60,503 bases of DNA from Amoebophrya sp. A120 (taxonomy: Eukaryota > Protista > Dinoflagellata). Positions 224 to 45,511 of the stretch are shown piece after piece. Where the stretch lies: the NCBI GenBank assembly GCA_905178155.1, contig CAJINV010000023.1, positions 690,834-751,336 on the forward strand, written 5' to 3'. Below the pieces are notes generated by a model. The model did not search any database, was not told where the DNA came from, and was given only the letters and a program-made list of their open reading frames with translations. Every line of letters begins with the position of its first letter. Position 1 is the first letter of the stretch. The position numbers and the translations under genes were made by a program.

Positions 224-3200
224 GTGGTTGTGTTGACACAAAAGCGCGTAAAGAGTTTGCAGCGATTGCTCACGTCCTTGAGCGCTGGCGTGTATCCACC
301 GACCGGCGCGAAGATTGATGTGGAAGTCCGGGTAGACGGCGTCGCGAGCGGGGAAATGCGGCAGGTATTCCAAGACTTTGCTTGGCCGCCAACTACCTCC
401 TCCAGCACGATCCAGGGCGTGAAGAAGCTCGTCGAGCTTCCGGAAGGAGGCAAGGGTCTCGCGCAAGCCTGGTTCCAGGCGTGGCGAGCGCCCCTGCGGG
501 ACGACTACGGCGAGCAGGAGGCGTCCCGGCACCGGGCCATCATCCTGGAGGACGACGTGGAGCTATCGCCACTGTGGTACTGCTGGCTCCTTCTAGCGTG
601 GCAGCACTACGGGTCGCGCACCGATCTGGCCGGTATTTCCCTGGAGTATTGCAAGGGAAAATGCCCCCTCCCCATATCGCAAAGGCACGCCTCAGAGAAT
701 TTGTGATGCGGATTTGTGACCACAAATCGTGTCTGTCTTGCAAGAAAGCAACGGCATAGGCTCCGACTCATTAGGCAGGCGGTTTGTGATGCTGTTGGGC
801 CTACAGCATAGACGTTCCTCGTGCTAAGTGCTGAGGCCAAGACCTCTCGGCACTGGCATGATATGGGCCTACAGTCCTCGACTGCAAGACAAATCTGATT
901 TGTGTACACAAATCCAGCATCACAAGTTCCGTTTTGATATGGGGAGGGAGGATCTTTCCTTTCGATATGGAGCGCCAGCTGTTCGTGAACAAGATGTCCA
1001 AAGTATCAAAGTGAAAAAAGCCCCCTCGTCCCCATATTCAGACGGAAATTTCTGTTGCTGGATTTGTGTACACAAATCAGCGCTGTATTGCAGCAAGCGC
1101 TTGCAGGCAATTTTTCCTGAGTACTAGCGGTAGCCTGGTTATAGGTATGCAAAAGGCTAGTACTCGTCAGGCATGACAGACAGCTCTGCAGTAGGCAGAA
1201 GCGCATGACAGCTTGGCTGTGGAATGCGCCACACGGCTATCATCTGCCTCATATGCAAGACAGAGCTGATTTATGGTCACAAAGCAGCATCACAAATTTC
1301 AATTGTGAGCTTGGGGACGAGGGGGGATCATTTTTCCTCACGATACAAAGCCGGCCGCTCGGGGCTCAACGCGGCGTACCGAGCGGGCAAACCCTTCCTG
1401 TATAAACAGCTAGGCTCAATTGGATTCAGTCCGCACCCGCTGGTGTGGAAGAGGTTTCTGCAGTGGATCCAAGCGTATTGCGAGGAAAAATCACCCCTCC
1501 CCATACCAGAAAGGGATACTTCTGAAAATTTGTGATGCTGATTTGAGACCACAAATCGTCGCTGTGTTGCAAGGAGGCAAATCCAAAAACTCCGCCGCAT
1601 TCTGCGGGCAATTTGTAATGCTGTATGGCCTACGAAGGACGCGCCTGCCTTGCTAGGCGCCTACACCAAAGCGCCCCTACCCTGGCTCTGTATCTGGTTG
1701 CGATCTTTCACTGCAAGACGAAGCCGATTTGTGTACAGAAATCCCGCACCACAGAGTTCCATTTCGATATGGGGAGGGGGGATTATTTCCTTTCGATAGG
1801 GCGGTAGACGTGACCACGGTCGATTTGGCCATTCCCGGGCTGATGAGCACGTCCTGGTGGAAGGTGCTGAACCGCAAACAGCTGTGGACGCTATAGCAAG
1901 AAAAAACTGTTTCATTGTGAACTTGTGATGCATGAAATGGAACGCTGAACTATTCGTCTTGCTACACCTCCAACGCATTGGATTTTTAAGCGTCTTTTCC
2001 TTTGGGAAGCGCGCATGGCACGTTTTCTGTGTCATGTGTAGCAAACTTGTATATGGGGATCTTGCAAAACCATCACAGTGAAACAGTTTTTTCGTGGGAT
2101 AGACGCATCATTTTGTCTACTTCTGCTACCACAGCAAGACCCCTCTCTTCACGCTGTACTACGCCGCCGCGTCGTCCGGTGCTGGTGCCACCAGCACGAC
2201 CTCTGAGAAAGCTAGGACCATGGCTGCCCATTGGCGGGAGAAAGGAGCGCACTACGCGGCGAGCCTATCAAATGCAAACATGTCTGGGTTAGGAAGGATG
2301 CGAACTTGTGATGCGCATTTCACAACACAGACGAATCTCTCACGCATAGGCAGCAAAAGGCGCCCATTTCCTGTCACCAAAATGGGCGATTTGTCATGCG
2401 GATTAAGCAAAGCGGAAGCTTCTTGAAATCTGTGATGCTAGGGCTTCCATGGCAGACATTTTGTGCCATGCAAAAGCAGCATGACAAAAATCTGCATTCT
2501 TCCAGACCCAGACATTTTTGCATTTGATAGAGCCTCGGGCGCGACCACCCCTTGGTGAACCGGGCGGAGTTCTGGCTTATCAAAGAGAAAAATCCGCCAT
2601 CCCTATATCGAAACGAAGTTTCTGATGCTGGATTTGCGTACACAAATAAAGTCTGTCTTGCTGGAGAGGACTGCCGGCATATGCCAAGCCTGAGTCGACA
2701 GGTTTCGACGTAGGCGACTAGCATGACAGAGGTTGATGCTGTAAGCCCAACAGCATCACAAACCGCCCGCATAATGCGGCGGACTCTCGTCTGGGCTTGC
2801 CTTCTTGCAAGACAGACAGGATTTGTGGTCACAAATCTGCATTACAAATTCTCAGACGGATGCGTTTTCAATATGGGGAGGGGGGATTTTTCCTTCTGAT
2901 ATGGCTCTTTCCGCCACTGTTGCAACAACTCGACTGGGACACCACCACGGTGAATGCGCAAGATTTTCCAGCCCAGAACGTAGCCGGAACTGTATCCTAT
3001 GCAAAAACGTCCCCACACCATAGTCAAGATGGGGACTCGGCTAGGCAAATTCACAAGCTTTGGCTGTTTTGCATGACAAATCTCGACTCGTATTGTAGTG
3101 CTGTTAGAGCTATCTGAGCAGCATCACAGATCTAGGATACCATGCTGATTGAAGCATGACAAATTATAAAACACGACTGGAAAACGCCTCTCATGGGGCT

Positions 3201-8324: not shown

Positions 8325-8619
8325 TATCCTAAGTAAAAACGTGCCCGCCCCAGAGTCAAGATGGGAATTTTGCAGGACAAATCGACAAGCTTTGGCTGTT
8401 GCGCACGAGAAGTTTTGTCCCCTCGTAGTGTAGTCGCGATTTTTTAGATAGTGCAGGAGCATCATCTTCATCACAAATCTAGCCTATTATGCTGATTGGA
8501 GCATCACAAATTTCAAAACAGCGCTATAGAATGTGTCTCATAGGTCTCCGCATGAGAAACATTTTAAGCATGCAGATGTGCATGACGACTCTGGGGTGGG
8601 GACATTTTTCCTCAGGATA
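8325..8619. mobile_element. Family C element, intergenic
   Basis: TATCCTAAGTAAAAAC..CTCAGGATA; DR decayed (AGCTA/AATCA). Confidence 0.8.
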
Positions 8620-8639
8620 AATCAGACCGCGTGTTTCAT

Positions 8640-8891
8640 TATCAAATGTAAAAATGTCTGGGTCTGGAAATTTGTGATGCTGGTTGGCGTATCATGAGGC
8701 GGCCACAAGTGCTGGCTCAGCATGACAAGTTTCTGAGCTCCTAGGTGTTGCCTATTCTGCATGACAAACTGCGCTTCTGCATCACAGAAACGCGGAGCTC
8801 TTGGGTAACGTGCATGACAGATTTAAGAGCCATGCCAGACAAGCATGACAAACGCGAATTCTTCCAGACCCAGACATTTTTGCATTTCATA
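8640..8891. mobile_element. Family B element, intergenic
   Basis: DR TTCAT/TTCAT. Confidence 0.9.
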
Positions 8892-8935
8892 TTCATCCAC
8901 AGATCAGCTCTCCGCCACGTGTGTCACGTGGTGGA

Positions 8936-9197
8936 TATCAAATGCAAAAATGTCTGGGTCTGGAAGAATGCAACTTGTGATGCTGAATTTGGATTCCAAA
9001 AAAATCTGTATTGCATGAGCAGCAAAGGGAATGCAATTTTTGCTACGCGGAGAGGGCATTTGTCATGCGGAATAGGCATCGCGAAGCCCTCAAAAAATCT
9101 GTGATGCTGGGGCATGCATTACATGAATCATGGATCATACAAAATATGCATCACAAATCTCAGAATCTTCCAGACCCAGACATTTTTACATTTGATA
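8936..9197. mobile_element. Family B element, intergenic
   Basis: DR GTGGA/GTGGA. Confidence 0.9.
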
Positions 9198-9363
9198 GTG
9201 GAGGAAGGGGTCCAATTTATTTTGCACAGCCTCCAATCATGTATATCAGTTTATTTTCCCGTTAGTAGTAGAACTACATCAACTACGCACAAATGTAATT
9301 CATACTCGCGGCGGGCCACGCCACGTCAACGAATTGCGGCAAGTCTGCAGATGGACGACTTCT

Positions 9364-10412
9364 TATCAACTGCACCAAATTAATATGTCTGGGTCTGGAA
9401 ACTTGTAATTACACAAGTATGAACACACTTCTTCTATATTCCCAATTGTGTGCTTCAACGTTTTTTATCTTTCCTTCTTCAGCGCGAAAAAAGCTTTTCC
9501 TTCCGGGCCTTGAGCGCTAGCCTAAACCACAAGAAAATCTTGTAGCCTATCCGATATGCGGCCCATCTGCTTCCACTGTAAGGTTGGTAAAGGTGGAGCC
9601 AGGTGGTTTTTCATGTGTTGTTTCTTCCGGTTCATTTTCGTTCTCCCTCGAGTCAAATTCCAAATCCGTTTTTTCTATTTTCCATTTCCGAACTACTACT
9701 ACTCCTACTCGCGGTTCGTGATCACAATTTGTTTGTAGTTGTTGCTGATCGGATATTTTTTGCTTTTCGTGGACCGATGCTATGCAGTATTTTTTGCAAC
9801 TTTTGAAAAAAAGACGTCCATTTCTAATTGTTTTTTATTTTTGCAAGACGACATGCATTTTTTGAAAGATTTTTCTGTACCTATTTTCCTGTGGTTGTTT
9901 CAAGCTGTGTAAAGAGAGCAATACAAATCCAGAAAAAAGCTTCCATATAAACTTCTTTGCCAGAACTACAACAGGAAAGCAGGTGTAAAGATGCATTTTA
10001 GATCGGGTTGGATGGACGTCTTTTTCACTTTTGCCTTTGTAAAAAATTCCATCCAGAGCCCGAAATGTATGCGACGTAAAGATTGCTGGGAAAGTCATAA
10101 GCTTATGTGGTAACACTCTTCAAGATTCCCAAGCCGGCAGCGTTTGCAAATGTTCCCTACGATTAGTTTCTGCTTCCATTTAAATCTAAAAGTGGATGAT
10201 AGCCGGACTGCAATACGCAGCCAAGCATGACAAATTTTTGAACTGCTATGTATTGCGTATTTTTCCGCATGAGAAACAACGTTTTTACATGACAAATAGG
10301 AGAGCCTTTATTTCGTGCCCATGCATTACAGATTCTCGAGTCATGTCAGACATGCATGACAAAAACAAATGTAAGAATCTTCCAGACCCAGACATTTTTT
10401 TTGCAATCCATA
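9364..10412. mobile_element. Long (1049 bp) family B element with about 780 bp extra internal DNA
   Basis: B TIRs at both ends, DR CTTCT/CTTCT; aligns to reverse complement of 13009-13259 except for about 9410-10185. Confidence 0.8.
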
Positions 10413-10422: not shown

Positions 10423-13400
10423 ATGGACGATTTCGGCGTGATCGTTCCTATCCTGAGTAAAAACATCCCCACCCCAGAGTTGTCATGCAAATCTGCATGC
10501 CAAAAAAGCTTGTCATGCGGAGCGCCATGAGAGGCATTCTCTAGTCGTGTTTTGGAATTTGTGATGCTATAATGAGCATGATATACTAGATCTGTGATGC
10601 TGCTGAACTACCTAGACAGGGTTACACTACGAGGACAAATTTGTCATGCCAAACGACCAAAGCTGGCTGATTTGTCTAGCAGATTACGCATCTTGACTCT
10701 GGTGCGGGGACGTTTTTACAAACGATAGTTCCGCCAGCAGCGTCAGGCACCGCGCCGGCATGCTCTGGCAGCACTGCGCAAGTTGGTCACGACTATGTGG
10801 ACATCCAGCTTGACTCTGACGACGAGGATCTGGACGGACGCGGCGGCGCAGATGCGAAGCGACGCGGTGGAACAAGCAGCGGCGGCCTATCAACTGTAAA
10901 AATGTCTGGGTCTGGACGATTCTGACACTTGTCATGCACGTTTTGCATGAGCCCTGATGTCTGTGATGCATGCCCTAGCATCACAGCCTTTTTGAGAGCT
11001 TCTTGATGCATATTCCGCATGACAAATGCCCTCTCCGCGTAGCAAAAAGAACATTCCTTTTGGTACTCATGCAATGCAGATTCTTGTGGAATCCAAATGC
11101 AGCATCACAAGTTGCATTTTTCCAGACCCAGACATTTTTACATTTCATACGGCCTCAGGCGTGCTGACAGTCAAGGTTGTAGCGCGACGAAATCACACCC
11201 CCGGGACGACGGGGACTCTCTCGACGTCGAAGCCAGAAAGTCTTCCACGTGGTGTCCTCCGACAAACGCGCTCCCTTTGATGACCCCTCGCGCCCTCCGG
11301 TTGGTTGTGTCTTACGGCCTTTGCCTGGCCTTGTGCCTCCTCGTTGCTGTGCGGTTCAGTGGCTGGATTTTCAACGTCTTCATCTTTGACTACGCAGCTC
11401 CGGGCGCCTATTTTTGGCGGGCCGCACAAGTTGACGGAAGTTTGCGAGGGGCGGCGGGTGCAGCAGGAGCAGGAGCCGACCGCCCATTAGAGAATATCGA
11501 GCCTCCGGAAGGCCGACGAATCATATTACAATTAAAAATGCCCTCACCCTGGAATTTGAAAATAAAGTTTCTCATGCAAAGTTTCCAAATGAAAGCTTTT
11601 TGTCTTGCATGAAAGGACTACGAGCCTTTCTGATATGCAGAACCTAGACTGCGCAAGGTAGCTTTTGCATCACAGATCCGGCTGTTATTGGGCTCCTTTG
11701 CAACACAAATGTGAGCTATTCAGGATGGGAAATTATTTGTCGTGCTGATATAGCAAGACGGGGAATGTTTCCATTGGAATGGTTTGCAATACAAATGCTG
11801 CCAAGTGCAGGGGTGGGTGCATTTATCACTGTGATAAATCGGGTACGGGATTTTGACCGGGTGTAATCGGTTCCCGCAGATCGCAGACCAGCTTTATCGA
11901 GTGCAAATATCCCTGGATGTCTGGAAGAGTGCGCGATTTGTCATGCAGCTTTTCCATGACCCATGAGGTCTGGAATGCAGGACCTAGCATGACAGATTCT
12001 GTGCGATCTGTATGATGCCTATCCTGCATGAGAAACTCCCTCCCGACTTGGCCAAAACTAGTAGACGACTTTAGTAATCACGCAACACAGATTTTTGCAT
12101 GGTTAAGATTTTGCATGACAAGTTCCACTCTTCCAGACCCAGGCATGTTTGCAATGCATAAGCTTCGAAGTCTCGGAAAAATGGGGGTCCCGGCCGAGGA
12201 CATCCAGGTAATGCTGACGATGTGCGGGCCTTCGGCTATCTACGGCAAGACGACACAGGAAGACTGCGAGCTGTTCGCCAACAGCGCCCGGGTCGCACAA
12301 TTTTGGACAGACACGGAGCTCGCAAGCCTGGCGCAATTCCAGCACATGACGGCGTGGAGGAGCAAGATGCAACCCATCACCAAGCAGGACGCTATCCGTG
12401 GCTACTACGAGCACAAGGATCTGCGCCACTGCGGAGCTCCTGGAGGTGCTGCTGGCGGTGCAATTACTGCTAGTAGTAGTACATCAGAGGCGGGACGAGC
12501 AGGGGGTGGAGCGGCGGCGGGTATAATCCAATTAAAGCGAAAGCAGAATTCGGTCGAGCCCAAGGAGGAGATGAATAGCGGAACGCGGGCTGGTGCTGGA
12601 GGTGAGCAGATATCAAAATGAAAAATCCCCCCTTTTCCATATTGAAAAGCTATGTTTCCGAAAATTTGTGTTGCTGATTTGAGGTCACAAATCACATGTG
12701 TCTTGCAAGACGACAAAGGCAGAAGCTTCGGCCCCATCATGGAAGCGATTTGTCATGCTGTCGGACTTAAAGCGGAGCCGTTTGCCATGCTGAACAACTA
12801 GACCCATACGCCCCTGCCTAGCCTGGGGATCTGGCCGCAATGCCTTCCTGCAATACAAAGGCGATTCGTGTACACAAATCCAGCATAAGAAGTTTCGTTT
12901 TGATATGGGGAGGGGGGATTTTTCCTTGCAATAGCAGAACAAAGTTGACGATAGAAAAAGTGGCGGCGCCAACGACGCGAGCGAGGGAGCGAGCCTCCAT
13001 TCTACTTTTTTCAAATGCAAAAATGTCTGGGTCTGGAAGAATACAACTTTGTAATGCGTGTCTGGCATGACTCGGGAATCTGTGTTGCATAGGCACGAAA
13101 GAGCCCTCTTGACTGTCATGCGAAAAGGCAGTTTGCCATGCGGAATACGTAAGACATGGCAGCCACAAAATTTGTCATGCATAGCTGCGTATTGCGGCGC
13201 GTCTATCATTCACTTTTAGCACTACAAGTTTCCAGACCCAGACATTTTTGCATTTTATAACTTCCACCGCGGATCAGCGAGAAGAACTACATGCAGCCAC
13301 GGCGAGCGGACTGAGTGTCGTCTCCGAGCTACCCACGCACCCAGCGGGAGCAGACGCCTGGATTCGCGCCGAACCCCTGCCGCCGCATGGTCGAGAGTGG

Positions 13401-19633: not shown

Positions 19634-19924
19634 ACTGAAGTCTTTTCTTTTCAATCCAGTCAATGGATCGATATTTTCATCTCGCGATCTACTTTTGAAC
19701 GAACTGTGGTAAGTGATCCGAATACAACTTGTTGGCTCTTGTGTTTTATTTTTTACAAGTGATGTTTGCTATTGACACTTGTAGTAGTGCCAAAAAAATT
19801 ATCGAGTATCGAGCATTTAATATTTTTTGGCTTTGTACTTGTATCGAGGTTGACCACTATGACTTGTTCTCATTTATTTTTCCCGCAATTATGCATTTTT
19901 AAATTCGGCTCGCTGTTTTTGAAT

Positions 19925-27564: not shown

Positions 27565-27888
27565 GGTGGAGATGAATAAAAAAGACTGTAAACTGTGATT
27601 GCAGATAATGTGGTCCTCGCACGCGGCTGCAGGAGGAGTTTTGGCTTCCCTGGTGTCACCAGACACTGGAAAATAAATGATGTCGGTGTTGACTGGCCTT
27701 CATACGGTGCTGTTGACTGTCACTTTTCTTCATACGTGTTTTGATATTCCCTTAGGATCATTCAAGGAGGCATTGCAAGTGTTTAATATTTCTCTGTAAT
27801 GCAGAGCAAGTTTGATGCAACAAATGTGTATTAACTCTAGTGCTTTTTTCTTGGGATATAATAAGTGTAGTAGCGTACAGTCGAGGTC

Positions 27889-28168
27889 TATCATGCGTAA
27901 AAATGTCCCCACACCAGAGTCAAGATGGGAAATCTGCTAGACAAATCGGCCAGCTTTGGTCGTTTGGCATGACAAGTTTGTCCTCGTAGTGTAATCCTGT
28001 TTAGGTAGTTCAGCAGCATCAGAGATCTAGTATACCACGCTGATTGTAGCAACACAAATTCCAAAACACGACTAGAAAATGCCTCTCATGGCGCTCCGCA
28101 TGACAAACTTCTTTGGGATGCAGATTTGCATGACAAACTCTGGGGTGGGGACGTTTTTACTCAGAATA
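27889..28168. mobile_element. Family C element, intergenic
   Basis: C TIRs; no matching DR. Confidence 0.8.
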
Positions 28169-28231
28169 TCCTGCGGCTCATATTGTTGATCCTAATGGTG
28201 TTGCGGACCATAATATTGTTTCTCGGTGGCG

Positions 28232-28537: not shown

Positions 28538-28560
28538 TGGCGGCATTTGATGATGGCAGA

Positions 28561-31632: not shown

Positions 31633-33743
31633 ATGTTGATGGCGCTGGCACGTTTAGCGTTGAAGACTTTGGTGCTCGCTGCTGTGGTAAAGAACGCACG
31701 CGGGCAATACTTGTCGATCCTACCTACGGAGAGCAGCGCATGGGCCGCCCACTTTTTTTCCTTCTTTAGTATTGCAAGGAAACACTCCCCCTCCCCATAT
31801 CAAAACGAAGTTTGTGATGCTGGATCTGCGTACACAAATCTGATTTGTCTTGCTGGAGAGGACTGCAGCCCCATACTAAGCCTGAGCAGAGAGGTTTTGG
31901 ACTAGGCTCTTAGCATGAGAAACGTCTGCGCTGTAGGCCCAACAACATCGCAAACCGTCGACAGAGTGCGGCGGACTCTCTAGATTTGCCTTCTTGCAAG
32001 ACAAACAGGATTCGTGGTCACAAATCAGCATCACAAATTTTCAGGCGCATGCGTTTTCAATATGGTGAGGGGGGATTTTTCGTCACAATATTTAGCGGGG
32101 CTGCTTCTCGGTTCCTTGCCTCGAACACCACCGCCACCACGCAGCCGCACACATCAGAAACAACGGCTCCATGGGTACCATCGTCGGATGCCTTGCCTGG
32201 TCGTGCTCTTACGAGCGCAGACGAACAAACGGGGACAACTCCTAGCGTGAACGTCCAGTGGGACGCACTAGCAGCGCAGCTGGATGAAGTATACGCGACA
32301 CCAATGCAAGTTTATGAGCACATTGCCACCCTGGCGAACAGAAAGCGCTACGTCGATATTGGTGCCCGTGATACCAAGCGGGCTGGCATAGTGGCAAAAT
32401 TTGCTCGATCGAGCACGTTCGTAGAAGCGGACCCGCAGAACTGCAAACATTTTCACGCTCTAGCACGCCAAGGCACCGAGGCAAACCGGGTGTCCGTTCT
32501 TTGTCCGACAAAGTTTGGTGCGGAAACGGTGACAGGGCTCACAGCTGAGCGAATGTCCGGAGTGCAAGCAGCGGAGTTAAAGCGCGCAGAGCTGGGCCTG
32601 GTGGAGGGCGACGTCTACTTCACCTGGCTCCCGGGAGAGGCTGTGTTGCACTTTTTGAAGCAGCTCAGAAAGGGGGTGAAGGCGGACGCTATACCTGCTT
32701 CGGGGAAGCTGGTCTCATGGGTGCACGCCTGTATGGGCCGGTGCCGCAGAGAGAAGAGCACTGGTCTCGCGGTGCACTATCGAGTGACGCGTCAGAGTGC
32801 AAAAGCCTTTCGCGAGCGGCGTTCTGTTTCGGGGGCCGGAGGCACAGCCACCGCCACCAGTGCTGACCCGAAGTGGCAAGAAAGCAGCGCGAACGGGCCC
32901 GCGCTGTCCAGTGTTGCTTCGCGACGTACGGAGAAACGCATCCAGGCGACCACGCGCGGCTGGGAAAACCTCAAAAAACAAAAAGCGTCTGGCAGACCGC
33001 TGGCGCCCCCCTCTCTCGCGCAATTTAGTATCATCGTTCTTGAGTTTGATCTGAGCGATATCGTAAGGAAAAACTCCCCCTCCCCATATCGAAAAGGCAC
33101 GCCACAGAGAATTTGTGATGCTTCTTGTGACTACAAATCGTGTCTGTCTTGCAAGGAAGCAACGGCACAGACTCCGCCTCATTATGCAGGCAGTTTGCCA
33201 TGGTGTTGGGCCTACAGCATGGACGTTCCTCAGGCTAGGTGCCTAGGCCATCAAAACCGCTCTGCATTGGCATGGTATGGGCCTGCAGTCCTCTACTGCA
33301 AGACAGGTCTGATTTGTGTACGCCAATCCACCTTCACAGCTTTCCTTTTGATATGGGGAGGGTGGATTTTTCCTTTTGATAAGCGAACCATGGGAATTAC
33401 TAGACATGGAACGCGTTCGGGGATGCGAAGAGAAGGTCGATAATGTTTTTGGCGTGTGTGATATCGCAAGAAAAAACTGTTTCACTGTGAACTTCTGATG
33501 CGTAGAATGGAACAAAGAACTATTTGTCTTGCTACACCTGCAAGACCTTGACTCTTTAGAGGTGTTTTCCTTTTAGAAGCGCGCATGGCAAATTTATTTC
33601 TGTGTCATGTGTAACAAACTTGTGATGCAGATCTTGCAAAATCATCACAGTGAAACAGTTTGTTTCGTGGGATATGTGACAACGTGTCGCATACGATGAA
33701 TCTCGAAAAGCCGCTTGGTTACGCTCATCCGCCGTGGTGGTGA
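31633..33743 (+). CDS. Signal-peptide protein with class I SAM methyltransferase-like motifs; 3 non-canonical introns
   Basis: Exons 31633-31769,32096-33058,33387-33461,33680-33743 = 1239 nt; hydrophobic N-terminus; YVDIGAR and FVEAD motifs. Confidence 0.6.
31770..32090. mobile_element. Introner family A
   Basis: DR TTTAG/TTTAG; frame restored. Confidence 0.9.
33059..33381. mobile_element. Introner family A
   Basis: DR AGCGA/AGCGA. Confidence 0.9.
33462..33674. mobile_element. Introner family D
   Basis: DR TGTGA/TGTGA. Confidence 0.9.
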
Positions 33744-34239: not shown

Positions 34240-37200
34240 ATGGGTAGCGTTTTCGGAGTTGTGCTACCATCCCCGCAGGGCACTTCCAAATCTTCCACTT
34301 TCTCCTGTTTCAGCCTGACCAGGGGTTCCGCGCTGCCATGGATTCTGTTTCCACTAATGGCATCACTGTACATCGATCGTGTCGGGTTTCCGATACTCTT
34401 GCGGAAATTTTTGGCGGAAAGAGCAGCGGCAGGGGAGGTGGACAACTACAGCGCAACGTCGCGTCAGGATTCTGGGAATAGCTCGTCGCGTCAGGGTAGT
34501 AGCCCGCACCGAGTCACCGACGAGGTTCGCGGCCACATTCTGGGAGCCTTTTTTGTTGGCTATGCCATCTCGCAGATTCCGGGGGGTGTGCTAGCGCGGA
34601 AACTGTCTCGGCGTGCAACCGAGCGCGGTCAGAAAGGCTTCGGCTTCCTGCAGCTCTATGCCAGCTGCGCCGCCTGGTGTTGCTTGAGCGCAGCGTTGGT
34701 CTGGTATGTCCACGGTGATGCCCCCGCACCGTACCTCCATGCTCGACAAGAACAGATGCAAAACAGCGTCGGCACATCGAAAACCTCATCTCCGCCAAAC
34801 GTAAACATTCCGGCGCTGCGACCGCAGTTTCGTCGTTCCCTGGAGGAACCGATCAAAACCGACAGGGAACAACATCAAGCCTCCACCAGTAGTAGCTCGA
34901 GCGACTTAGGCAAAAATGGCGCGCCGGGCGGAATCATTATTAATTGGGACGACGCGGCAAGTACAAAACCGGCGGCACCGGGACAATCCGGATCAGCTTC
35001 AACAAGAGCAGTTGCGTCAACTTCTACTATGGAAGGAGAGGACCACAACATCAAAGCTGTAGCTGCCACTGCTTCTGCTGTATTCAATAAGGCAGCTGCA
35101 GACGATATATTGTTGATTAAGGCGCCAAGTAGTGCTAGTCGTACAAGAACTCTGGTGGTAGAAGCTCCTTCCGCCCACCAGCTGCAAGAGAAACCGGAAA
35201 CAATTCGCACAGAAGTCCCTGTGCTGGCACTTGGCGGCGGTCGTTTTCTCGCAGGGATTTGCCAAGGGCTCGTGATCCCCGCAATTCACCAAATCTTGGC
35301 GGACGAGTGCGAGCCGAGGAGCCTGGCCAACGCAGTTTATTGTGAGGAAAAATCCCCCCTCCCCATATCAAAACAGGACTTCTGATGCTGGATTTGTGTA
35401 CACAAATCAAAGCTGTCTTGCAGTAGAGGATTTGAGGCATATGCCGTGCCGGAGTACAGAGCTTCTGACGTGGACGCTTAGCATCACAAATGTCTATGCT
35501 GTAGCCCAAGCAGCATCGCAAACCGTCCGCATAATGCGGCGGAGACTGTGGAGTTGCCTTCTTGCAAGACAGATGTGATTTGTGGCCTCAAATCAGCAGC
35601 GCAAATTTTCGGAGACATACCCTTTCAATATGGGGAGGGGGGAGCTTTCCTTTCAATACGGTGAGCGGCACGGTCTCGGGCATGTACCTCGGAGGGCTCG
35701 TGGCAATGGTGTACGCGGCCGACCTGCTCGAGGCCTACGGTTCGATCGCCGGCTTCCTGGCTTCGGTAGCCCTGCCCGTATGCTGCGCGCTGTTGCTCTT
35801 GCTGTTTGACAGGGCCTGCTTCCCACGGGGTGATGTGGTTCAAGAAGGTGCGCTCTTCTCCTGTTTTCGCTCCGGCAGCGGCGCAGGTAGTGCCACCACC
35901 TTCCGGTTTGACTATGCCGACCTGAACCGCGGTCGCGAACACGTCGAGCAGTCTGCCGCGGGGGATCTGGTCGATCTTGCTGCTGTAGAGGATGAGACGC
36001 GAGACCAGATTATATGGATTGCAAAAATGTCTGGGTCTGGAAGATTGCCAGGTTTGTCATGCAGGTTTTCCATAACTCATGAGGTCTGGTATGTAGGACA
36101 TAGCATGACAGATTCTGCGAAGCCTTTCCAATGCCTATCCTGCATGGGAAACTGCCTCTCGATTAGGTCAAAAGTGCGCAACCTTTGGCAATCATGCAAC
36201 ACAGCTTTTTGCCTGATTCAGATTTAGCATGACAAGTTGCATTCTTCCAGACCCAGACACTTTTACATTTGATAGATTAGCCACGCGCACAACAACGAGA
36301 TCGGCGAAGACAATGTCAAATGCAAAGATGTCTGGGGCTGCCATGCAAGCCCTCGCATCACCCGTCTTGCGAAGGTGTCCCAATGTTGCCTAATCCGCCA
36401 GAGGAATGAGTCCCCTAGTGTGGTGTCAAGTTTTGGGCCGCATTTGCTGTTAATGCATGACAGACCCTTGTGCTGCCTCAAATTTCTTGTATGATCACAA
36501 ACTGCATTCTACTTCCAGACCCAGACATATTTGCAATCCATAGACAATCCACGTGCACCTCTACAGATAGTTGAAACTGTCCCACCAGGGGCTGGCGCGA
36601 GTGCAAAGCCGGACGCAGGGCGAGGAGCGCTGGCTCCTGCAGATGAGAGGCCAACGAGGCAGCTTGTCGCGCCGCCCTCGAATCATGTTGCAAAATCAAA
36701 CCCAAAAAGCAGCCCCGATGTTGTTGCGAAGGAGGTGCGCCCTTTGGTTCTTGCCGAGATGCGGTGCGAGCGGCCCCCCGGCGAAGACGTCGCTCTTGGG
36801 CGCGCAGGAATTGCTGGGGGAACAATTATTGGTGCGCCGTTCAGTGATGACGATGAGGAGCGAAAAGCCGCAGGGCCCTTTGTAGAGGAAGTTGTTTTTG
36901 GGACGAGTGCTCAAAATTCTATTGCAATGAAAAATGCCCAGACCCCAGATGAACTTGGCAGCATTTGCATTGCAAATTTTTCCAATGCTGGAAACATTCC
37001 TCGTTTTGCATATATCTGCATCAGAAGTTTTCCATGCTGATTCGCTCAAATTTGTGTTGCAAAGGAGCCCAGCAGCAGGATCTTCTTTTATGCAGAAAAT
37101 ACCTCAAGAACCTAGATTCTGCACAAGAAAGGCCCGCAGTCCTTTCATGCAATACAAAAAGCTTCCACTTGGAAACTTTGCATGAGAAACTGTTCGCAAA

Positions 37201-39132
37201 TTCCGTCGTGGGGGCCTTTTTCCTTTTGATAAATTACGTAACTCCTTCAAAAGCGGAGCAAGAAGATTATCACGCTATTAGAAGCAGCGACAAGGCCTTG
37301 CTGGCACATCCTGCGGTGCAGGTCATTTTGTGCAGCAGCTTTGCGTTCCATTACGCGTTTTACCTGCTTATGAGCTGGCTTCCCACATTTCTGGAGGAAT
37401 TTGCGCGGTGTGGCGGGGCGCGACAGGGGACCGCCAACAAAGCTGCACCCTACGGCCTGATGTTCGTGGCTACCAATCTTGGCTCGCGCGCAAGCAACTT
37501 ATCACAAGAAAAAAGTGTTACAGTTACACATTTGTTGGAGTTTCTGCATCACAAATTTTCTCTGTGTGCCAGACAAAACTTGTAATGCAAAGATCATACT
37601 GGTAAATACGTAGGAAACGAGGCTCGCAAGCATTTCTCGCATGACAAAGGTTGACTGTCTTGCGGCTCCTGCAGCACAATGTGCAACTGTAACCCTCTTT
37701 TCTTGCGATGCAACTGGCTTCGAGACTACTACTTCTCCCGGCGGGGGGGCGGGGGAAGTAGGAAAACACCACTTGACACGACGCCGGACATCACTGCGAG
37801 TGGCCCTGAGGACCTCAACGCAGCCGCGGCTGCAGCTGCAACTACAGCCTGCAACCCATCTTCATGCCCTGTTGCCACTTCTCGCGCTCGCAAATTCGTC
37901 AACGCTGCCGGCATTGCGGTCGCGTCTGCCTCCCTGCTCTGGATGCCCCTCGTTGTCGCCTCTGGTGCAGCCGGAGGTGATGAAGATGGTGCCCGCGCAA
38001 ATGTTTTCGCGGATGCGGCGGGTAGTAGTTCCTCGGCGCTGCTCTTGCCTGCTAGTAGTGCTACGGCCGCACCACCAGCCGGCGCAGCAGCTCCAGCGCC
38101 AACAAGTCGAACAGCTTTACTTCCTAATGTGGACTACCATGGTGATCATGTTCATGTTGCGCCACGACCTGCTGCCACAAGGACGTCGACCCCAGATCGC
38201 GCTAGTCGTGCGCGCCGCGCCGTCTTCGAGGCAACGACGCCATCTGCAGGGGGGGAGGCGTGTATCAAAAGGAAAATCAATCCCCCCTCCCCATATCGAA
38301 ATGCAAATCTGTGATGCGGGATTTGTGTTGCAAGAACACAAATCGGATGTATTGTCTTGTAGTAGAGCACTGCAGACAGATGTAGAGCCGCATCATGGAT
38401 GTTTATTTGGTGTAGGCGCCTAGCAAGACAGGCATATTCTCAGTAGGCCATACAGCATTACAAATTGCCTGCAGAACGAGGCGGGGTCTTTGGATTTGTC
38501 TTCTAGCAATACGGAAGCGATTTGCTGTGGCCTCCAATCCGCGTCACAAATTTTGAGAAGAATCCCGTTTTGGTATGGGCAGGAGGGGACAACTTTTTCT
38601 CACAATAACGTGGAGATCCTCGTCGCCCACCGTGAGCAGTCAAAGCGAATTGGAAGAGCAGGCACTAGACCGCAATAAGCAGTTCGGTCCTGGTGGGGAG
38701 GTACTTGCAGTCGGCCGGTCTTCAAACACCAGAGGCGGCGGTCCATCGCGAACAGGGGGCCACCAGAACGCCAGCACGACGCCCACGACCTTTCCTGCTG
38801 GCACGTCGACTACATCATCAACTTCTAGCGCAGCCTGCGCCAGCTTGGCTATAAGCGCGGCCTTTTTCGGGTTGGGCTTCTCACGGGGCGGCTTCGGGGT
38901 GGCCCATCTGGATATCAACGATGGAAAAGACGCTGGCTACCTCATCGGTGTCGTAAATCTTGCAGGGACTCTGGGAGGCGTCCTCAGTGTTCCGGCTACT
39001 GGTTACATTCTCACCGCCTCCGGCGGTGCGCCAGTGCGCAGCGGGTGGATGATCACTTTGGCAGTCGCAGCAGCGTGGTGTCTCGTCAGTGCGGTTTTTT
39101 TCTGCCGGTACGCAAAGGCCGGACGGCTGTAA
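34240..39132 (+). CDS. MFS anion:cation symporter (SLC17/sialin/PHT4-like) with long low-complexity loops; 6 non-canonical introns
   Basis: Exons 34240-35337,35664-36012,36280-36313,36548-36919,37237-37499,37716-38262,38613-39132 = 3183 nt open; YIDRV, GAFFVGYAISQIPGG, RFLAGICQG, SGMYLG, LMSWLPTF, HLDI..AGYLIGVVNLAGT. Confidence 0.85.
35338..35658. mobile_element. Introner family A
   Basis: DR CAGTT/CGGTG (both encode AV); frame restored. Confidence 0.85.
36013..36274. mobile_element. Introner family B
   Basis: DR GATTA/GATTA; near-identical inverse of 42517-42778. Confidence 0.9.
36314..36542. mobile_element. Introner family B (degenerate)
   Basis: TGT..ATA, DR GACAA/GACAA; frame restored. 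Confidence 0.85.
36920..37231. mobile_element. Introner family F
   Basis: DR AATTC/AATTA; frame restored. Confidence 0.85.
37500..37710. mobile_element. Introner family E
   Basis: TAT..ATG, DR CAACT/CAACT; frame restored. Confidence 0.9.
38263..38607. mobile_element. Introner family A (degenerate)
   Basis: DR GCGTG/ACGTG; frame restored. Confidence 0.85.
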
Positions 39133-39888: not shown

Positions 39889-42800
39889 ATGCCCGAATTA
39901 GGCGCGGGGTTGTGCTGCCCGCGGCCCTTCTTACAATGGGTGGGGCTGTCGCTTCTGATCTGTTGGATGCAAGTGTGGCGCCGGCGGTCCACGCAACCAG
40001 ATTTGTTCCAGCACTCCTGCAGCAACGAGTTGAACAACGTGCGTCAGTCCGTGCGTGGAAATAAACTCATGCGAAACGCAGACGACCCCCCGAGAGGACA
40101 GGCCATGGCCGGCGCGGTAGTTAGTGCAAAAAAAGCTTCTGCTATCGCAAAAGACGAACAAACTACGTCTAGCGGACTATCGACGTCAACAGATCCTCAA
40201 CACGCTGGCGCTGCCGTCGAGACGGGCACAGCAGGAAGACCTACACTCAGCGGCGGCACGGATCATGTCCCTGCGGGGACAGGCACAGGAACCGGCGAAG
40301 CTGCTGCTCCTTATCGCAGGAAAGAAGTGTTACAGTTACACACCCTGATGCAAGACCAGCAAGAAAGACAACCTGTGTCATGCAGGAAATGCTTTCCAGC
40401 CTCATTTCGTGCGTGTCTTCCTTCATAGCCTGCCACGCATTACAAGTTTTCTTTGCTAGTATGCAGAGCAACTTTGTGATGCTGAAATTGCACCAAATGT
40501 GTAAGAACTGTTCACACTTTTTTCCTGTGATACTGCTGCGTCCCCACCTAGTAGTATTACCACCCCATCCACGACCACTGGAGCAGTAGTAAACATGGAA
40601 AATAATAAAGATACCTCCCCGACGTCGAGCGACGTAAAGACGACAAAACCAGCAGCACTCCTCGGGCAGCTGAGGAAGGAGTTTGCGCAGTCATTCTGCC
40701 ACCCCGCGGAAACGCCCTCGTATCCACGATCCTGCTTCAAGCACGGGAAGAACTGCCCGCGGCGCATATTACAATGAAAAATGCCCCCACCCCTGAACTT
40801 GGGAGCATTTGTATTGCAAACCTTTCCAAATGAAACACTCGCCCTCTTGCATCTATCAGCATCACAGGTTTTCAATCGTTAAGAGCAAAAATTTGTATTG
40901 CAAAAGACCCCAGCAAGAGCGGCGCTTGTCATGCAAGCGATGCGATACACGCCTACATTCTGCATCAGAAAGATTCATACTCCTTTCATGCATGACAAAA
41001 AGTTTTCATTTGGAAATTTCGCATCACAAATTTTTGCAATTTAGGGGTGGGGGGCACTTTTCACTGTAATAGCGCATGGACTCGACCTGTGCGAAGGCCC
41101 CCGAGGATTTTACAGGGATCCCGGCATTTTTGGTCGAACACGAGCGGTTTTACTATCAGATTCTCAAACGTTTTTACATTCTCAGCTGTTACATGATTTG
41201 TCATGCAAAACTACCATTATCATCTACACGGTCAAGCTGTTCTGCATGACAAATTCTGGGAGGGCCAAACAGGCTGATGATCTGTGCCAAATCTGTCATG
41301 CAAGACGCGCAATGCCCCTCCTTTCACTTTTCCCATTCTTGCATCAGCACAAATCCATCTAACAGCTGAGAATGGAACAGTTGAGAACGCCATATTTACC
41401 GGACGGCGCGGGGGAAGGTCACGTTCGACGCATATCAAGTGAAAATCTGTCTGGGTCTGGAACAAAGCAACTTGTCATGCTAAATCTGAACCATGTGAAA
41501 ATCTGTTTTGCATGATTACCAAAAGCTGTCCACTTTTGACCTACCTCCGAGACGCAGTTTCTCATGCAGAATTATAGGCATGGTAGCACAACTCTCGCAG
41601 AATCTGTCATGCTATGTCCTACATACCTGACCTCATGGGTGATGGAATAAAACCAGCATGACACTAAGTCTGGCCGCATTCTTCCAGACCCAGATGACAT
41701 TGTTGCAGTTGATAACGCACACCGTTTGACGAAGTTTTACGGCCCGCACCTATCGGAAGAGGAACGGGAAAAGATGGCGAAGGAGTATCGTAAGGAAAAA
41801 TCCCCCCTCCCCATATCAAAATGGAAATTTGTGATGCTGATTTGTGGTAACAAATACCCTCTGTCTTGCCTCTAGGGGAATGCGAACGATGTGGCGCATT
41901 CCACAGCCAGTCTGTCACGCGCTTTTGACTACTGCAAACCTGTATCTCATGCCTAATTGCTAGCCTTCTGCATATCCAAACAGGCTTAGAAAATGCCGCC
42001 AAGCACCTTCTGCAAGACAGATCTGATTTGTGTACGGAAATCCAGCATCAGAAACTTCCTTTTGATATGGGGAGGGGGGATTTTCCCCTCCTATAAGGAG
42101 ATCGCGGACTACATGACCGTGAACCATCGGCCCTTTGTATCGAAAGGAAAACCCCCCCTCCCCATATTGAAAAGGTATGTCTCAGAAAATTTGTAATGCT
42201 GATGCGCGACTACAAATCGGCTCTGTCTTGTAAGAACTCAACTCCACAGGCTCCGCCGCATTCTGCAGGCGGTTTGTCATGCTGTTGGCCCTACAAACTA
42301 GACGTCTGCCATGCTCAGCGCCTAGCCCAAAACGTCTCTACTCAGTCCCAGTAGAGGCCTGCAGCCCTCTCCAGCAAGATCAATCCGATTTGTGCACGCA
42401 CATCCAGCATTAGAAACTTCGTTTTGATCATATGGGGCGGGGGGATTTTTCCTTGTGATTCTTTGTGGTGATTCCCAATTACTGGACAACGGAGCAAGTC
42501 GACAAGGCACTGGAAGTATCAAATGTAAAAATGTCTGGGTCTGGAAGAATGCAACTTGTCATGCTAAATCTGAATCAGGCAAAAAGCTGTGTTGCATGAT
42601 TGCCAAAGGTTGTGCACTTTTGACCTAATCGAGAGGCAGTTTCTCATGCAGGATAAGCATTGGAAAGGCTTCGCAGAATCTGTCATGCTATGTCCTACAT
42701 ACCAGACCTCATGGGTTATGGAAAACCTGCATGACAAACCTGGCAATCTTCCAGACCCAGACATTTTTGCAATCCATAGGAAGAGGTGGATAAATTTCAG

Positions 42801-45511
42801 CAAGAAGGATGTCACAACCACCGCGGAAACGGGTTTGACTCCCGGTCGTTTGCGTATCAAACGGAAAAATCCCCCCTCCCCATATCGAAAAGGAAGTTTG
42901 TAATGCTGGATTTGCGTACACAAATCAGATTCGTCTTGCAGTAGAGGACTGCAGTTGTGTGCCAACTTTGGGAAGCAAGGTTTTGACATTGGCGTCTAGC
43001 ATTACAAATGTCCACACTGTAGGCCCAGCAGCATCACGAACCGCCTGCATAGTGCGGCGCAGCCTGTGGACTTGCCTTCTTGCAAGACAGAGACGATTGC
43101 AAATTTTCTGTGGCTTCCATTTCGATATGGGGAGGGGGGTCTTTCCTTACGATATTGCGGCGGAGAAGTTCTCGCGGCAGGCCAAGAGATTCAAGGAGGA
43201 CCGTATTGAAGGGAAGAACTCCCCCTTCCCATATTGAAGAGGTATGTTTCCGAAAATTTGTGTTGCTGATTTGAGGTTACAAATCACCTCTGTCTTGCAA
43301 GAAGACAAGGGCAGAAGCTTCCGCCCCATTATGGAAGCGATTTGTCATGCTGTTGGGCCTAAAGGGGAGCCGTTTGCCATGCTGAGCAACTAGACCCATA
43401 CGCCCCTACCTAGGCTGGGCATCTGGCCGCAATGCCTTCCTGCAATGCAAATTTGTGTACACAAATCCAGCATCAGAAATTTCGTTTTGATATGGGGAGG
43501 GGGGGCCTTTCCTTTCGATAGACCGGTTCCCGTGGCTGGTCGCGAAGCACTTGTATCAGCGGGACAAGGTACAGCTTCACCGAGGGAAACTGACCACCTT
43601 GGTGGGCGTAGTAAAGTGGAACGGGAAGCCCGCAAACTCCGGGGGTCCCTGGCACAAGGATGACTTCTATCTCGGCGCCAAGGCCATCCTGTACCTAAAC
43701 TATCGTAAGAAAAAACTGCTTCACTGTAAGGATTTTGCAAGTTTTGCATTACAAGTTCGTTACACATTACAAAGAAAGCTTGCCATGCGAGTATCCTACG
43801 GGAAAACACTCTAAAAATCACTTGTCTTGCATGTGTAGCAAGAGAAACACTTCTCTTCAGTAATGCCTTTTCTGCATCACAAGTTCACAGTGAAACAGTT
43901 TTTTCTTGCGATATAAACGACGTGTTGGACAATGGTCCTTTCAGCATGGTATCAAATGTAAAAATGTCTGGGTCTGGAAGAATGCAACTTGTCATGCTAA
44001 ATCTGAAGCATGCAAAAATCTGTGTTGCATGATTACCAAAAGTCGTTCAGTTTTGGCCAAGTCGGGAGAGAGTTTCTCATGCAGGATAGGCATGAGAGAG
44101 AGTGCACAGAATCTGTCATTTTAGGTCCTGCATTACAGACCTCATGGGTCATGGAAAAGCTGCATGACAAATCGCGCATTCTTCCAGACCCAGACATTTT
44201 TGCATTTGATACATGGCTATCGATTGCAAATATACTATATATCGATCTGGGTCTAGTAGAGGAATGCGCTTGTAGTTTCGATCATGCATCTGCTTTCAGA
44301 TCATGACACAAATAATGTCTGATGCACGGAAATAAAGCATATTCAGGTTCTTTTGCGGACGCCTCTTGATCCCTTGTCGCCCCCGTGAGACATAACTGCC
44401 GACTTTCGTCGCAAAAAGTGGGCAGCTTTCTTTGGCGTGTCCGAAACACAATAATTTTTGTGTGCTCCAGCAGAGTTGGCATCTCACAATGTATAGGTAA
44501 TGCAACCCTTCCAGACATCCAGTGATAAAAATTGTTATGTTTGCAATGCATAATGGCAATTGACTACCCAGACGCCTCCCTCCGCCCGGATCTGCCGGCG
44601 CAGACGAAGCTTAACTTCGAGGACGTCCCAGGTGGTGGCTCCGAGTGGCCCGATAGTCCAGAAAAGCGGACACAGTTTCACCACCGCACCATGAGCACGA
44701 AGCTGGCAGAGGGAACGATCCGAGCCATCGTGCGACTGGCCGCGCCGCCCGGCTCCATGATTCTGTTCACGAGCCACAACATTCATTATGGCGAACCGCT
44801 TCGCAACGGCACCCGTGTCACCATGTATTTAAATGAAAAATACCCCCTCCCCATACCGAAAACGAAATTTGTGATGCTGTATTTGAGTAGTACACAAATC
44901 GACTTGTAACGCTAGAAGGCCAAGAGACGCAGCTGTGGCCTCGTTTGCAGGCTATTTTTCATGCTGTTTCGCGCTTCGAGTTGCTTCCTGTCATACTGAA
45001 GCCGCAGGACTTTGTTCCCACGCCAACCAGCACTAGAGTCCGCATCTTTTCCCTTCGAGCATGACAGAGCTGATTTGTGACCACAAATCTGCATCACAAA
45101 TTTCTAGTTTGAGTATGGGGTGGGGGGATTTTTCATTTTGATACCATGACGAACTACTACAATGGAAACCCGTCACAGGAAATCGAGCGGACCTGTAAGC
45201 TTCCCCGAGTGGATATCATTTGTAACAACGTCCCAACCACAGACTCGTCATGCAGATTTGCAATGAAAAGAACATTATGTAATTCGCATCTACTCTATGA
45301 GAGGCATTTCTAATCGTGTTGTGGCATTTGTAACGCTGTATTAACCAGGGTAAGCAGATGGATTTGCGATGCGTTTCACCCTGCTGAGCTGCACTACACT
45401 ACGGACTGCAAGTTGTGATGCCGAAATCCCAAAACTATTAAGCTTGCTTTGCAAAGTCTCCATCTTGACTCTGGGGCGGTGACGTTTTTACTCAGGATAG
45501 TGGATCTGTGA
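39889..45511 (+). CDS. PhyH-like 2-oxoglutarate/Fe(II) dioxygenase with N-terminal membrane anchor; 14 non-canonical introns
   Basis: Exons 39889-40311,40538-40766,41077-41153,41400-41432,41720-41785,42101-42137,42466-42516,42784-42854,43160-43203,43526-43700,43919-43949,44217,44558-44825,45149-45213,45505-45511 = 1578 nt; FVVIPNYW, SGGPWHKD, KAILYLNDV.DNGPF, GSMILF..NIHYG, RVTMTNYY. Confidence 0.85.
40312..40532. mobile_element. Introner family E
   Basis: DR CTCCT/CTGCT; frame restored. Confidence 0.85.
40767..41071. mobile_element. Introner family F
   Basis: DR GCGCA/GCGCA. Confidence 0.9.
41154..41394. mobile_element. Introner family I (single copy)
   Basis: IR TTCTCAA..CATTCTCAGCTGTTA / TAACAGCTGAGAATG..TTGAGAA; DR TTTAC/TTTAC. 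Confidence 0.85.
41433..41714. mobile_element. Introner family B
   Basis: DR ACGCA/ACGCA. Confidence 0.9.
41786..42095. mobile_element. Introner family A
   Basis: DR AGGAG/AGGAG. Confidence 0.9.
42138..42460. mobile_element. Introner family A
   Basis: TAT..ATT, DR CTTTG/CTTTG. Confidence 0.9.
42517..42778. mobile_element. Introner family B
   Basis: DR GGAAG/GGAAG. Confidence 0.9.
42855..43154. mobile_element. Introner family A
   Basis: DR TTGCG/TTGCG. Confidence 0.9.
43204..43520. mobile_element. Introner family A
   Basis: DR GACCG/GACCG; same subfamily as 12611 and inverse of 5304. Confidence 0.9.
43701..43913. mobile_element. Introner family D
   Basis: DR TAAAC/TAAAC; gives YLN|DV. 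Confidence 0.9.
43950..44211. mobile_element. Introner family B
   Basis: DR CATGG/CATGG. Confidence 0.9.
44218..44552. mobile_element. Introner family B (old, degenerate)
   Basis: DR ATGGC/ATGGC; only 6 nt from the previous element. Confidence 0.85.
44826..45143. mobile_element. Introner family A
   Basis: DR CCATG/CCATG. Confidence 0.9.
45214..45499. mobile_element. Introner family C
   Basis: DR GTGGA/GTGGA. Confidence 0.9.

What the first reader, a model, noticed from the sequence alone, without database searches (positions are those of the whole stretch)
224..45511. Genes split entirely by transposon-like, non-GT-AG introns that follow one rule: TAT..ATA element plus 5 nt
Seen: 62 complete TIR elements of about 11 unrelated families interrupt 8 CDSs, in all three phases and both orientations; 45 have a perfect 5-bp direct repeat. 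Removing element plus one repeat gives uninterrupted frames with intact catalytic motifs in every gene. Sliding the boundaries within the repeats never yields GT-AG, and no canonical intron is needed in any CDS. The same families occur between genes, so they are MITE-like. Established: non-canonical introns and introners with inverted and direct repeats are described in Amoebophrya (Farhat et al. 2021); as far as I know the excision mechanism is unresolved. Inference: a structure-guided, sequence-independent precise excision system (RNA splicing of a hairpin, or DNA excision) makes these insertions harmless.
Basis: partly seen in the sequence, partly recalled or inferred. Interest (0 to 1): 0.93.

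Follow-up and report, generated by a model that had tools for sequence, protein, structure and literature searches.

The report
Transposon introns cut by a ruler
In the algal parasite Amoebophrya A120, small transposons that interrupt genes (a known oddity) are removed from the RNA at a fixed place, one letter before their start and four after their end whichever way they face, likely by a relaxed spliceosome guided by the transposon's own predicted hairpin, which makes an open question about their removal directly testable.

Summary
In detail: 69 TAT..ATA elements in 224-45511, 62 in eight reading frames, 45 of those with a perfect 5-bp repeat. The window is Amoebophrya sp. A120 (two proteins 100% identical), whose introner elements are published (PMC7789003), so the system is known. 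What is added: assembled RNA contigs (one sample) show element+5 nt removed at 38 elements, and junctions with mismatched or absent repeats fix the cut, 1 nt before TAT and 4 nt after ATA (12 of 12 informative junctions fit; no other register fits more than 8). The paper calls these borders variable or unknown. The register follows the transcript, not the element's orientation, and needs no repeat, so DNA excision and reverse-transcriptase artefact are unlikely. The cut is not sequence-blind: T at intron +2 almost never varies while its pairing partner does (1 doubtful versus 11). That is the GU position, so a relaxed U2 spliceosome with a branch A at -7 is my best guess (0.5). A Euglena-like hairpin nuclease/ligase is the rival (0.35). 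Lariat or circle reads would decide. One RNA gap is 6 nt off; the enzyme was not tested.

The parts
224..5737 (+). Gene 1 CDS (its 5' part lies before the window), 13 element introns
   Evidence: Open frame after removal; RNA contig of X5 lacks 7 and 6 elements at exactly +5.00 nt each in two gaps
10423..18880 (+). Gene 2 CDS, GNT-I family protein, 13 element introns
   Evidence: The -1/+4 model is identical to annotated A120 protein P0001 (996 aa); no other register is; Pfam; X5 contig
19859..24883 (+). Gene 3 CDS (start uncertain), 8 element introns
   Evidence: Frame; joints in X3 and X5 for 6 elements and a loose end for 20350
25745..27564 (+). Gene 4 CDS, weak DUF202 match, 4 element introns
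   Evidence: 4 of 4 joints in X3 and X5; Pfam below cut-off
28561..31086 (+). Gene 5 CDS, weak SGNH-like match, 1 element intron in CDS
   Evidence: Joint 28588->28874
31633..33743 (+). Gene 6 CDS, 3 element introns
   Evidence: 3 of 3 joints in X3 and X5
34240..39132 (+). Gene 7 CDS, MFS transporter-like, 6 element introns
   Evidence: Model identical to annotated A120 protein P0007 (1060 aa) when 1-4 repeat letters are kept
39889..45511 (+). Gene 8 CDS, 14 element introns
23720..24049 (+). Intron with an exact cut: element 23721-24045 plus 1 nt before and 4 nt after; repeat matches 1 of 5
   Evidence: Joint from 23719, next RNA letters begin at 24050, no slide possible
24942..25212 (+). 3'-UTR intron with an exact cut: element 24943-25208; repeat matches 1 of 5
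   Evidence: Joint 24941->25213, both=0, X3 and X5
27732..28216 (+). Intron found from RNA only: TAC(27733)..ATA(28212), no repeat, holds a nested element at 27889-28168; obeys -1/+4
   Evidence: predicted end pairing
13961..15120 (+). Long intron: element 13962-15116 (TAT..ACA), no 5-bp repeat, beside an unused direct repeat of about 35 nt
   Evidence: The junction residue in P0001 fits only -1/+4; the X5 contig gap is 6 nt shorter than this predicts, unresolved
17265..18433 (+). Long intron: element 17266-18429 with an internal insertion of about 950 nt
   Evidence: X5 piece restarts at 18431; gap sum +5.00 per element
44216..44216 (+). Predicted 1-nt exon between elements 43950-44211 and 44218-44552
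   Evidence: Dropping the base breaks the frame; no RNA laid here
8325..10412 (+). Four elements upstream of gene 2 (8325, 8640, 8936, 9364), likely 5'-UTR introns
   Evidence: The X5 contig length fits a start near 8196 if all are removed; low X5 depth at 9751-10400; indirect

Best explanation
The elements are transposon-derived introns of Amoebophrya A120 that are cut out of the transcript at a fixed register, 5'-exon|N-TAT...ATA-NNNN|exon-3', likely by a relaxed U2-type spliceosome for which the predicted terminal hairpin marks the intron. Shown: removal of element+5 nt, the -1/+4 register, and its independence of the repeat, the family, the length and the orientation. Inferred step 1: a TIR transposase inserts the elements with a 5-bp target duplication, so a 5-nt overhang restores the old exon exactly. 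Inferred step 2: pairing of the inverted repeats brings the ends together in place of U1 (not found in this genome per PMC7789003). Inferred step 3: the catalytic core reads U at +2 (the U of GU), uses the first A of the closing ATA (-7) as branch point, and sets the 3' cut by distance instead of AG.
For: RNA level and register: 17 of 17 introns seen as joints in X3 and X5 skip element+5, one more by a loose end, 20 more by summed length. 12 of 12 informative junctions fit 4 letters kept from the upstream repeat; 3 letters fits 8, the others 5 or fewer. P0001 is reproduced only by this register. Flipped copies of two families keep the same register. Spliceosome-like signal: the register puts T at +2 in 72 of 72 and A at +3 in 70 of 72, as in GTA donors, and A at -7 in 72 of 72. 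In sense orientation, variants at +2 number 1 (doubtful boundary) against 11 at its pairing partner -5 (window 0 vs 3, sister loci 1 vs 8; p=0.006), and variants at -7 number 3 against 11 at +4 (p=0.057). Table S4 of PMC7789003: all 9 predominant A120 pairs have T second and all 9 A25 pairs start TT. U2, U4, U5, U6 and 83 of 89 spliceosome proteins are reported for A120. An element in an NNAGG target gives a plain GT-AG intron in this same register (5 of 227). Tunicates are a precedent for spliceosomes that drop GT-AG.
Against: No lariat, branch point or snRNA contact was seen; the enzyme is untested. The hairpin would hide both the donor and the branch region from U6 and U2 (established spliceosome chemistry, recalled). 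G at +1 (74 of 227) and AG at the end (15 of 227) are at background, so nothing selects canonical signals. A at -7 has 3 exceptions among 275 strand-called sister elements, none RNA-checked. The +2/-5 contrast was chosen after seeing the window; the sister loci alone give p=0.039. Table S4 may be biased by mapper preferences. Ab initio canonical introns were too noisy to show a fixed branch distance. Euglena has the same kind of code and releases circles. The RNA is assembled contigs of one sample; one gap (13543-15873) is 6 nt shorter than P0001 predicts.
Confidence: 0.5

Rival explanations
1. A separate, non-spliceosomal machine (hairpin-binding endonuclease plus RNA ligase, as proposed for Euglena and diplonemids) would cut 1 nt before and 4 nt after the stem and join the exons.
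For: Same logic as the Euglena code, a paired motif with fixed spacers, longer on the 3' side (PMC12501133). Mean predicted pairing of the three terminal pairs is 0.74-0.80 over 68 elements. G+1 and AG are at background. U1 not found. RNase III-like and tRNA-like routes are proposed in PMC12621601.
Against: The two best-held letters are the ones a spliceosome needs, U+2 and an A near the 3' end. The register coincides with GT-AG when the target is NNAGG. A nuclease could also read a U, so this is not decisive.
Confidence: 0.35
2. The junctions would be reverse-transcriptase template switches across hairpins with direct repeats, and the genes would be broken.
For: Hairpin plus short repeat is the known setting for such artefacts (recalled; PMC2923612 seen as a search listing only). 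All RNA here is cDNA-derived.
Against: Three RNA junctions with 1 of 5 repeat letters matching use the same register; the long repeat at 13962 is not used; frames open only after removal and relatives align without gaps across junctions such as 11524, 11895, 15271 and 16728.
Confidence: 0.03
3. The elements would be excised from DNA at some life stage, and the RNA made from emptied loci.
For: Transposon anatomy. Empty sites could not be read because repeats flooded the joint table of the DNA-like run, and life stages were not separated.
Against: The cut is asymmetric and follows the transcript in both element orientations (23721 vs 35338; 24943 vs 27163). X1 contigs cross 7 exon-element borders with 31 or more letters on each side at depth 38.9-52.7, against 43.6 in unique intergenic DNA. 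UTR elements are removed as well.
Confidence: 0.02

Closest known systems
Amoebophrya sp. A120 introner elements (Farhat et al. 2021, PMC7789003; Gozashti et al. 2025, PMC12130899)
   Same: Same strain; inverted repeats starting TAT, direct repeats of 3-5 nt, RNA-supported non-canonical introns, many families (29,850 elements reported).
   Different: The paper gives the borders as variable or unknown and finds no dinucleotide signature; the 19 of 58 A120 family rows that I saw in the 2025 dataset list mixed repeat lengths (2-5) and mixed splice-site origins. Here one register, -1/+4, fits all informative junctions, needs no repeat, and holds T at +2.
Euglena nonconventional introns (PMC12501133; review PMC11282704)
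   Same: MITE-like origin, paired ends, slidable repeats, code of a paired motif plus fixed spacers (N3-CDG...CHG-N5-6), unknown machine.
   Different: Motif TAT/ATA with spacers of 1 and 4 instead of CAG/CTG with 3 and 5-6; unrelated lineage; circles are reported for Euglena and untested here.
Fritillaria borealis non-canonical introns (via PMC11282704 and PMC13326754; the primary paper is not held)
   Same: MITE-derived non-GT-AG introns with TIR and target duplication, attributed to an adapted U2 spliceosome.
   Different: They keep preferred end pairs (AG-AC, AG-AT) and U1; here +1 and the last four letters are free and U1 was not found.
Micromonas, Aureococcus and Symbiodinium introners (PMC9860276)
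   Same: Non-autonomous DNA transposons whose removal restores the exon by using part of the target duplication.
   Different: They carry or co-opt canonical splice sites; here canonical sites arise only by chance (5 of 227).
Hemistasiid diplonemid noncanonical introns (PMC12621601)
   Same: No GT-AG, paired ends, spliceosome present, mechanism open.
   Different: Short and G/C-rich at the ends; no TAT..ATA elements in the passages that I saw.

Membership tests
Amoebophrya A120 introner elements | Genome of strain A120 | tested here: met
   Exons match P0001 and P0007, named Amoebophrya sp. A120, at 100%; full models identical
Amoebophrya A120 introner elements | Inverted repeat starting TAT, short direct repeat at the borders | tested here: met
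   against section 11 of PMC7789003
Amoebophrya A120 introner elements | Removed from RNA, non-GT-AG ends | tested here: met
MITE / TIR DNA transposon | TIRs and a target duplication of constant length | tested here: met
   5 bp in 258 of 330
MITE / TIR DNA transposon | Autonomous partner with the same TIR | tested here: inconclusive
   No transposase domain in 14 ORFs inside four long window elements or in 6 ORFs of long TIR pairs in sister loci; only about 0.6 Mb was seen
MITE / TIR DNA transposon | Empty-site alleles in related strains | not tested
   No orthologous locus among the rows shown
U2 spliceosomal intron | GT (GC)..AG ends | tested here: not met
   0 of 72 at any slide
U2 spliceosomal intron | U at +2 | tested here: met
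   72 of 72; asymmetry test
U2 spliceosomal intron | Branch adenosine near the 3' end | tested here: inconclusive
   A at -7 in 72 of 72 window elements; 3 exceptions in 275 sister elements; p=0.057 against its partner
U2 spliceosomal intron | Lariat product and dependence on snRNPs | not testable with these tools
   Only contigs covered the locus; the raw-read runs laid did not
U12 spliceosomal intron | RTATCCTT donor (recalled) and U11/U12 snRNAs | tested here: not met
   C at +6 in 9 of 72; minor snRNAs reported absent
Euglena nonconventional intron | Paired terminal motif with fixed spacers to the cuts | tested here: met
   Spacers of 1 and 4; pairing predicted
Euglena nonconventional intron | CDG / CHG motif at +4 and -8 | tested here: not met
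   T at +4 in 70 of 72
Euglena nonconventional intron | Release as a full-length circle | not testable with these tools
   No back-joint among the rows shown, but contigs drop rare forms

The most novel reading that the evidence does not exclude
A120 runs a second mRNA-splicing machine that is not the spliceosome: it recognises a transposon's terminal hairpin plus one U, cuts by ruler at -1/+4, and makes any insertion in any orientation harmless, even around a one-letter exon. It would have arisen independently of the similar Euglena code, and N-TAT..ATA-N4 would be a portable intron needing no exon sequence.
Probability: 0.33. Interest if true: 0.9.

Novelty: already known. Interest (0 to 1): 0.62.

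Why it matters
The elements are published, but how they leave the RNA is open, and their borders were reported as variable or unknown. A single register turns about 30,000 introns into one rule. It predicts the exact excised molecule (element+5 nt), the first intron letter and a candidate branch A, so lariat versus circle can be looked up in total-RNA reads. Either outcome is notable: a spliceosome that needs neither G+1, AG nor U1, or a second splicing machine convergent with Euglena's. It also explains why these transposons could flood genes, and it gives a rule to correct A120 gene models.

Tried and rejected
No whole genome is held for the window, so snRNAs, Prp8, RtcB and transposases could not be searched. 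The DNA-like run X1 flooded the joint table (15 rows shown, 2,177 not), so empty sites could not be read. Rfam: 0 matches in the window. Viral contigs: 0 matches to the TIR pattern. No transposase domain in long elements; the 415-aa ORF inside a TIR pair in L067 had no Pfam or Atlas hit. Gene 8 protein search: 72 candidates, none significant. Ab initio canonical introns in sister loci: 208 candidates, mostly ambiguous, used only as a hint that donors look like AG|GTA. U12 reading rejected. Repeat-to-repeat removal at 13962 (1178 nt) rejected. My first guess that this element ends at ATT 15122 came from the X5 length and was replaced by 15116 after P0001. Earlier findings of the scan: nothing returned. 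Roy 2023 and Henriet 2019 are not held.

Full report
Observation. Scans for paired ends and one element revealed by RNA give 72 elements in the window, 69 in 224-45511, 62 inside eight + strand CDS, 45 of these with a perfect 5-bp direct repeat. Removing element+5 nt opens all eight frames; +0, 1, 3, 4, 6, 7 do not. No slide gives GT-AG or GC-AG in 72 of 72. In 134 loci (557,161 bases) of one metagenome record that hold the same families at up to 97% identity (their strain was not established), 414 distinct elements were found, and the repeat is 5 nt in 258 of 330 with perfect ends. The families are not unrelated: 66 of 72 share TGTVATGC at about 96 times the shuffled rate, and exons have none.

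Identity and prior art. Two exons match proteins named Amoebophrya sp. A120 at 100%. Farhat et al. (PMC7789003; I read the abstract, passages, sections 10, 11, 12, 16, 36 and supplement parts 2-3; figures, including Fig. 3 and S19-S25, are not visible and may bear on novelty) describe for A120 inverted repeats starting TAT, repeats of 3-5 nt, 29,850 elements, RNA support and no U1. The system is therefore known. The legend of Fig. [quoted passage not shown] Gozashti 2025 (PMC12130899; passages, supplement file 1 passages, 19 of 58 A120 rows of file 8; files 13 and 14 not searched) lists mixed repeat lengths and mixed splice-site origins. I found no fixed register in searches, nor in passages of PMC11282704, PMC9860276, PMC11453091 and PMC12005148. 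Roy 2023 and Henriet 2019 are not held, and most subscription papers are outside the library.

RNA. Runs X3-X6 hold 0.58-0.59 of the words of 28880-38800, near the 0.62 expected from CDS alone. Their RNA label is a guess, backed by zero X5 depth at 6501-7800 where X1 has cover. In gene 1 all 13 elements are missing at exactly +5.00 nt each by summed length, and in gene 2 seven are. A fourth gap with four elements is 6 nt shorter than element+5 predicts, which is unresolved; an alternative 3' cut at 15126, again seven letters after an A, would fit but was not seen. The 15 joints shown of 16 cover 17 introns, each skipping element+5 in both runs; a loose end adds 20350.

The register. Where the two repeat copies differ, the RNA shows which letters were kept. 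With k letters kept from the upstream copy: 23721, 24943 and 27733 give k=4 exactly; 21469 and 26301 give 3-4; 23237 gives 4-5; 27163 gives 3-5; 35338 gives 2-4; 17266 and 20350 give at least 1; 11524 and 13009 give at most 4. The last five rest on piece or loose ends and the tool's leftmost-joint convention. k=4 fits 12 of 12, k=3 fits 8, the others 5 or fewer; uniform independent cuts would agree on one k with probability about 1e-4. Element 27733-28212 is a blind test: my scans missed it, it has no repeat and carries a nested element, yet the RNA cut lies 1 nt before TAC and 4 nt after ATA. The annotated protein P0001 is reproduced letter for letter only by k=4, through a repeat-free junction at the 1155-nt element 13962; P0007 allows k=1-4. 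The intron is thus exon|N-TAT...ATA-NNNN|exon.

RNA or DNA. A cut tied to the element would become k=1 in flipped copies. Flipped members of two families (35338 against 23721, 27163 against 24943) exclude k=1, so polarity follows the transcript. All genes with register data are on the + strand, so the flip with gene strand was not seen directly. Contigs of the DNA-like run cross 7 exon-element borders at single-copy depth, though contigs drop rare forms. Template switching is unlikely because repeat-free junctions obey the rule, a long repeat at 13962 is ignored, and relatives align ungapped across several junctions.

What is read. Flanks are free: G at +1 in 74 of 227 and AG at the end in 15 of 227 are at background. 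The ends are predicted to pair (0.74-0.80 for the first three pairs, 68 elements; one long element, 26643, does not pair in its best fold). Sequence matters too. With ends located without using the terminal triplets and gene strand called by a codon model (51 of 51 calls correct in the window, 12 uncalled), 275 of 339 sister elements with at least 4 of 5 repeat letters could be oriented; 64 uncalled and 75 with weaker repeats were left out. Variants at +2 number 1 (a doubtful boundary) against 8 at the paired position -5, and 0 against 3 in the window (p=0.006 together, 0.039 for the loci alone). Variants at -7 number 3 against 11 at +4 (p=0.057; one subfamily contributes several). Table S4 of PMC7789003 agrees: T is second in all 9 predominant A120 pairs and all 9 A25 pairs start TT, although mappers favour some of these pairs.

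Mechanism. Shown: precise RNA-level removal at -1/+4. Inferred: a TIR transposase leaves a 5-bp duplication, so removal restores the exon; the hairpin defines the intron; the cutter reads U+2. I put a relaxed U2 spliceosome first (0.5) because the register places U and A where GUA donors have them, yields a plain GT-AG intron when the target is NNAGG (5 of 227), and leaves a nearly constant A at -7 as a candidate branch point, and because A120 keeps U2, U4, U5, U6 and 83 of 89 proteins. Tunicates are a precedent (PMC13326754, passages). Against it, the stem would hide the sites that U6 and U2 pair with (recalled), A-7 has exceptions, and Euglena uses the same kind of code, tested by knock-ins, with circles as product (PMC12501133, passages). 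A hairpin nuclease/ligase (routes proposed in PMC12621601, passages) gets 0.35. No autonomous element was found in about 0.6 Mb.

Verdict. Known elements in a known genome, with a cut rule that I did not find in print and that makes the open mechanism testable by one search for lariats or circles. Interest 0.62.

Noticed in passing
window 45883-58614, coding on the - strand: Two copia-type LTR retrotransposons in tandem sharing the middle LTR (LTRs TG..CA ending 46227, 52421, 58614), with gag-like (zinc knuckle) and pol (RVT_2) frames and a 5-bp target duplication around the pair. The duplication length equals that of the introners; PMC12130899 reports an A120 TIR family with copia-like ORFs, so a copia-type integrase is a lead for the mobiliser.
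   Followed up: partly
elements throughout the window: The motif TGTVATGC occurs on both strands in 66 of 72 elements of otherwise dissimilar families, more often in one orientation per half: a candidate binding site for the transposase or a splicing factor.
   Followed up: partly
window 44216: A one-letter exon between two elements is required by the frame; it implies sequential removal. No RNA laid there.
   Followed up: partly
window 25491-28900: One RNA contig in each of X3 and X5 runs from gene 4 into gene 5 with all elements removed: overlapping UTRs or a two-gene precursor; a contig cannot tell.
   Followed up: no
window 29024-30436: Single-letter differences in RNA contigs of gene 5 (A>G, G>A, G>T, G>C), four shared by X3 and X5 counting two inside an element: editing, a paralogue or alleles; no DNA run was laid there.
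   Followed up: no
window 13926-15139: A direct repeat of about 35 nt overlaps the right end of the 1155-nt element; splicing at -1/+4 leaves an 18-nt duplication in the protein P0001.
   Followed up: partly
window 6628-7732 and 17933-18372: A degenerate array of about 70-nt units without X5 cover between genes 1 and 2, and a 12-nt tandem repeat with its complement inside element 17266.
   Followed up: no
L046 (- strand gene): A short element remnant with a weak left TIR sits in a GCAGG repeat, so it reads as a GT-AG intron in the same register; ab initio only.
   Followed up: no
L067 476-2934: A TIR pair with a 5-bp repeat encloses about 2.2 kb of extra sequence with a 415-aa ORF; no Pfam or Atlas match.
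   Followed up: partly
runs X9 and X10 on window 3022-3075 and 12073-12142: Raw RNA reads match element interiors at 90-95% and run on into other sequence: related elements are present in RNA of those samples, from other loci.
   Followed up: no
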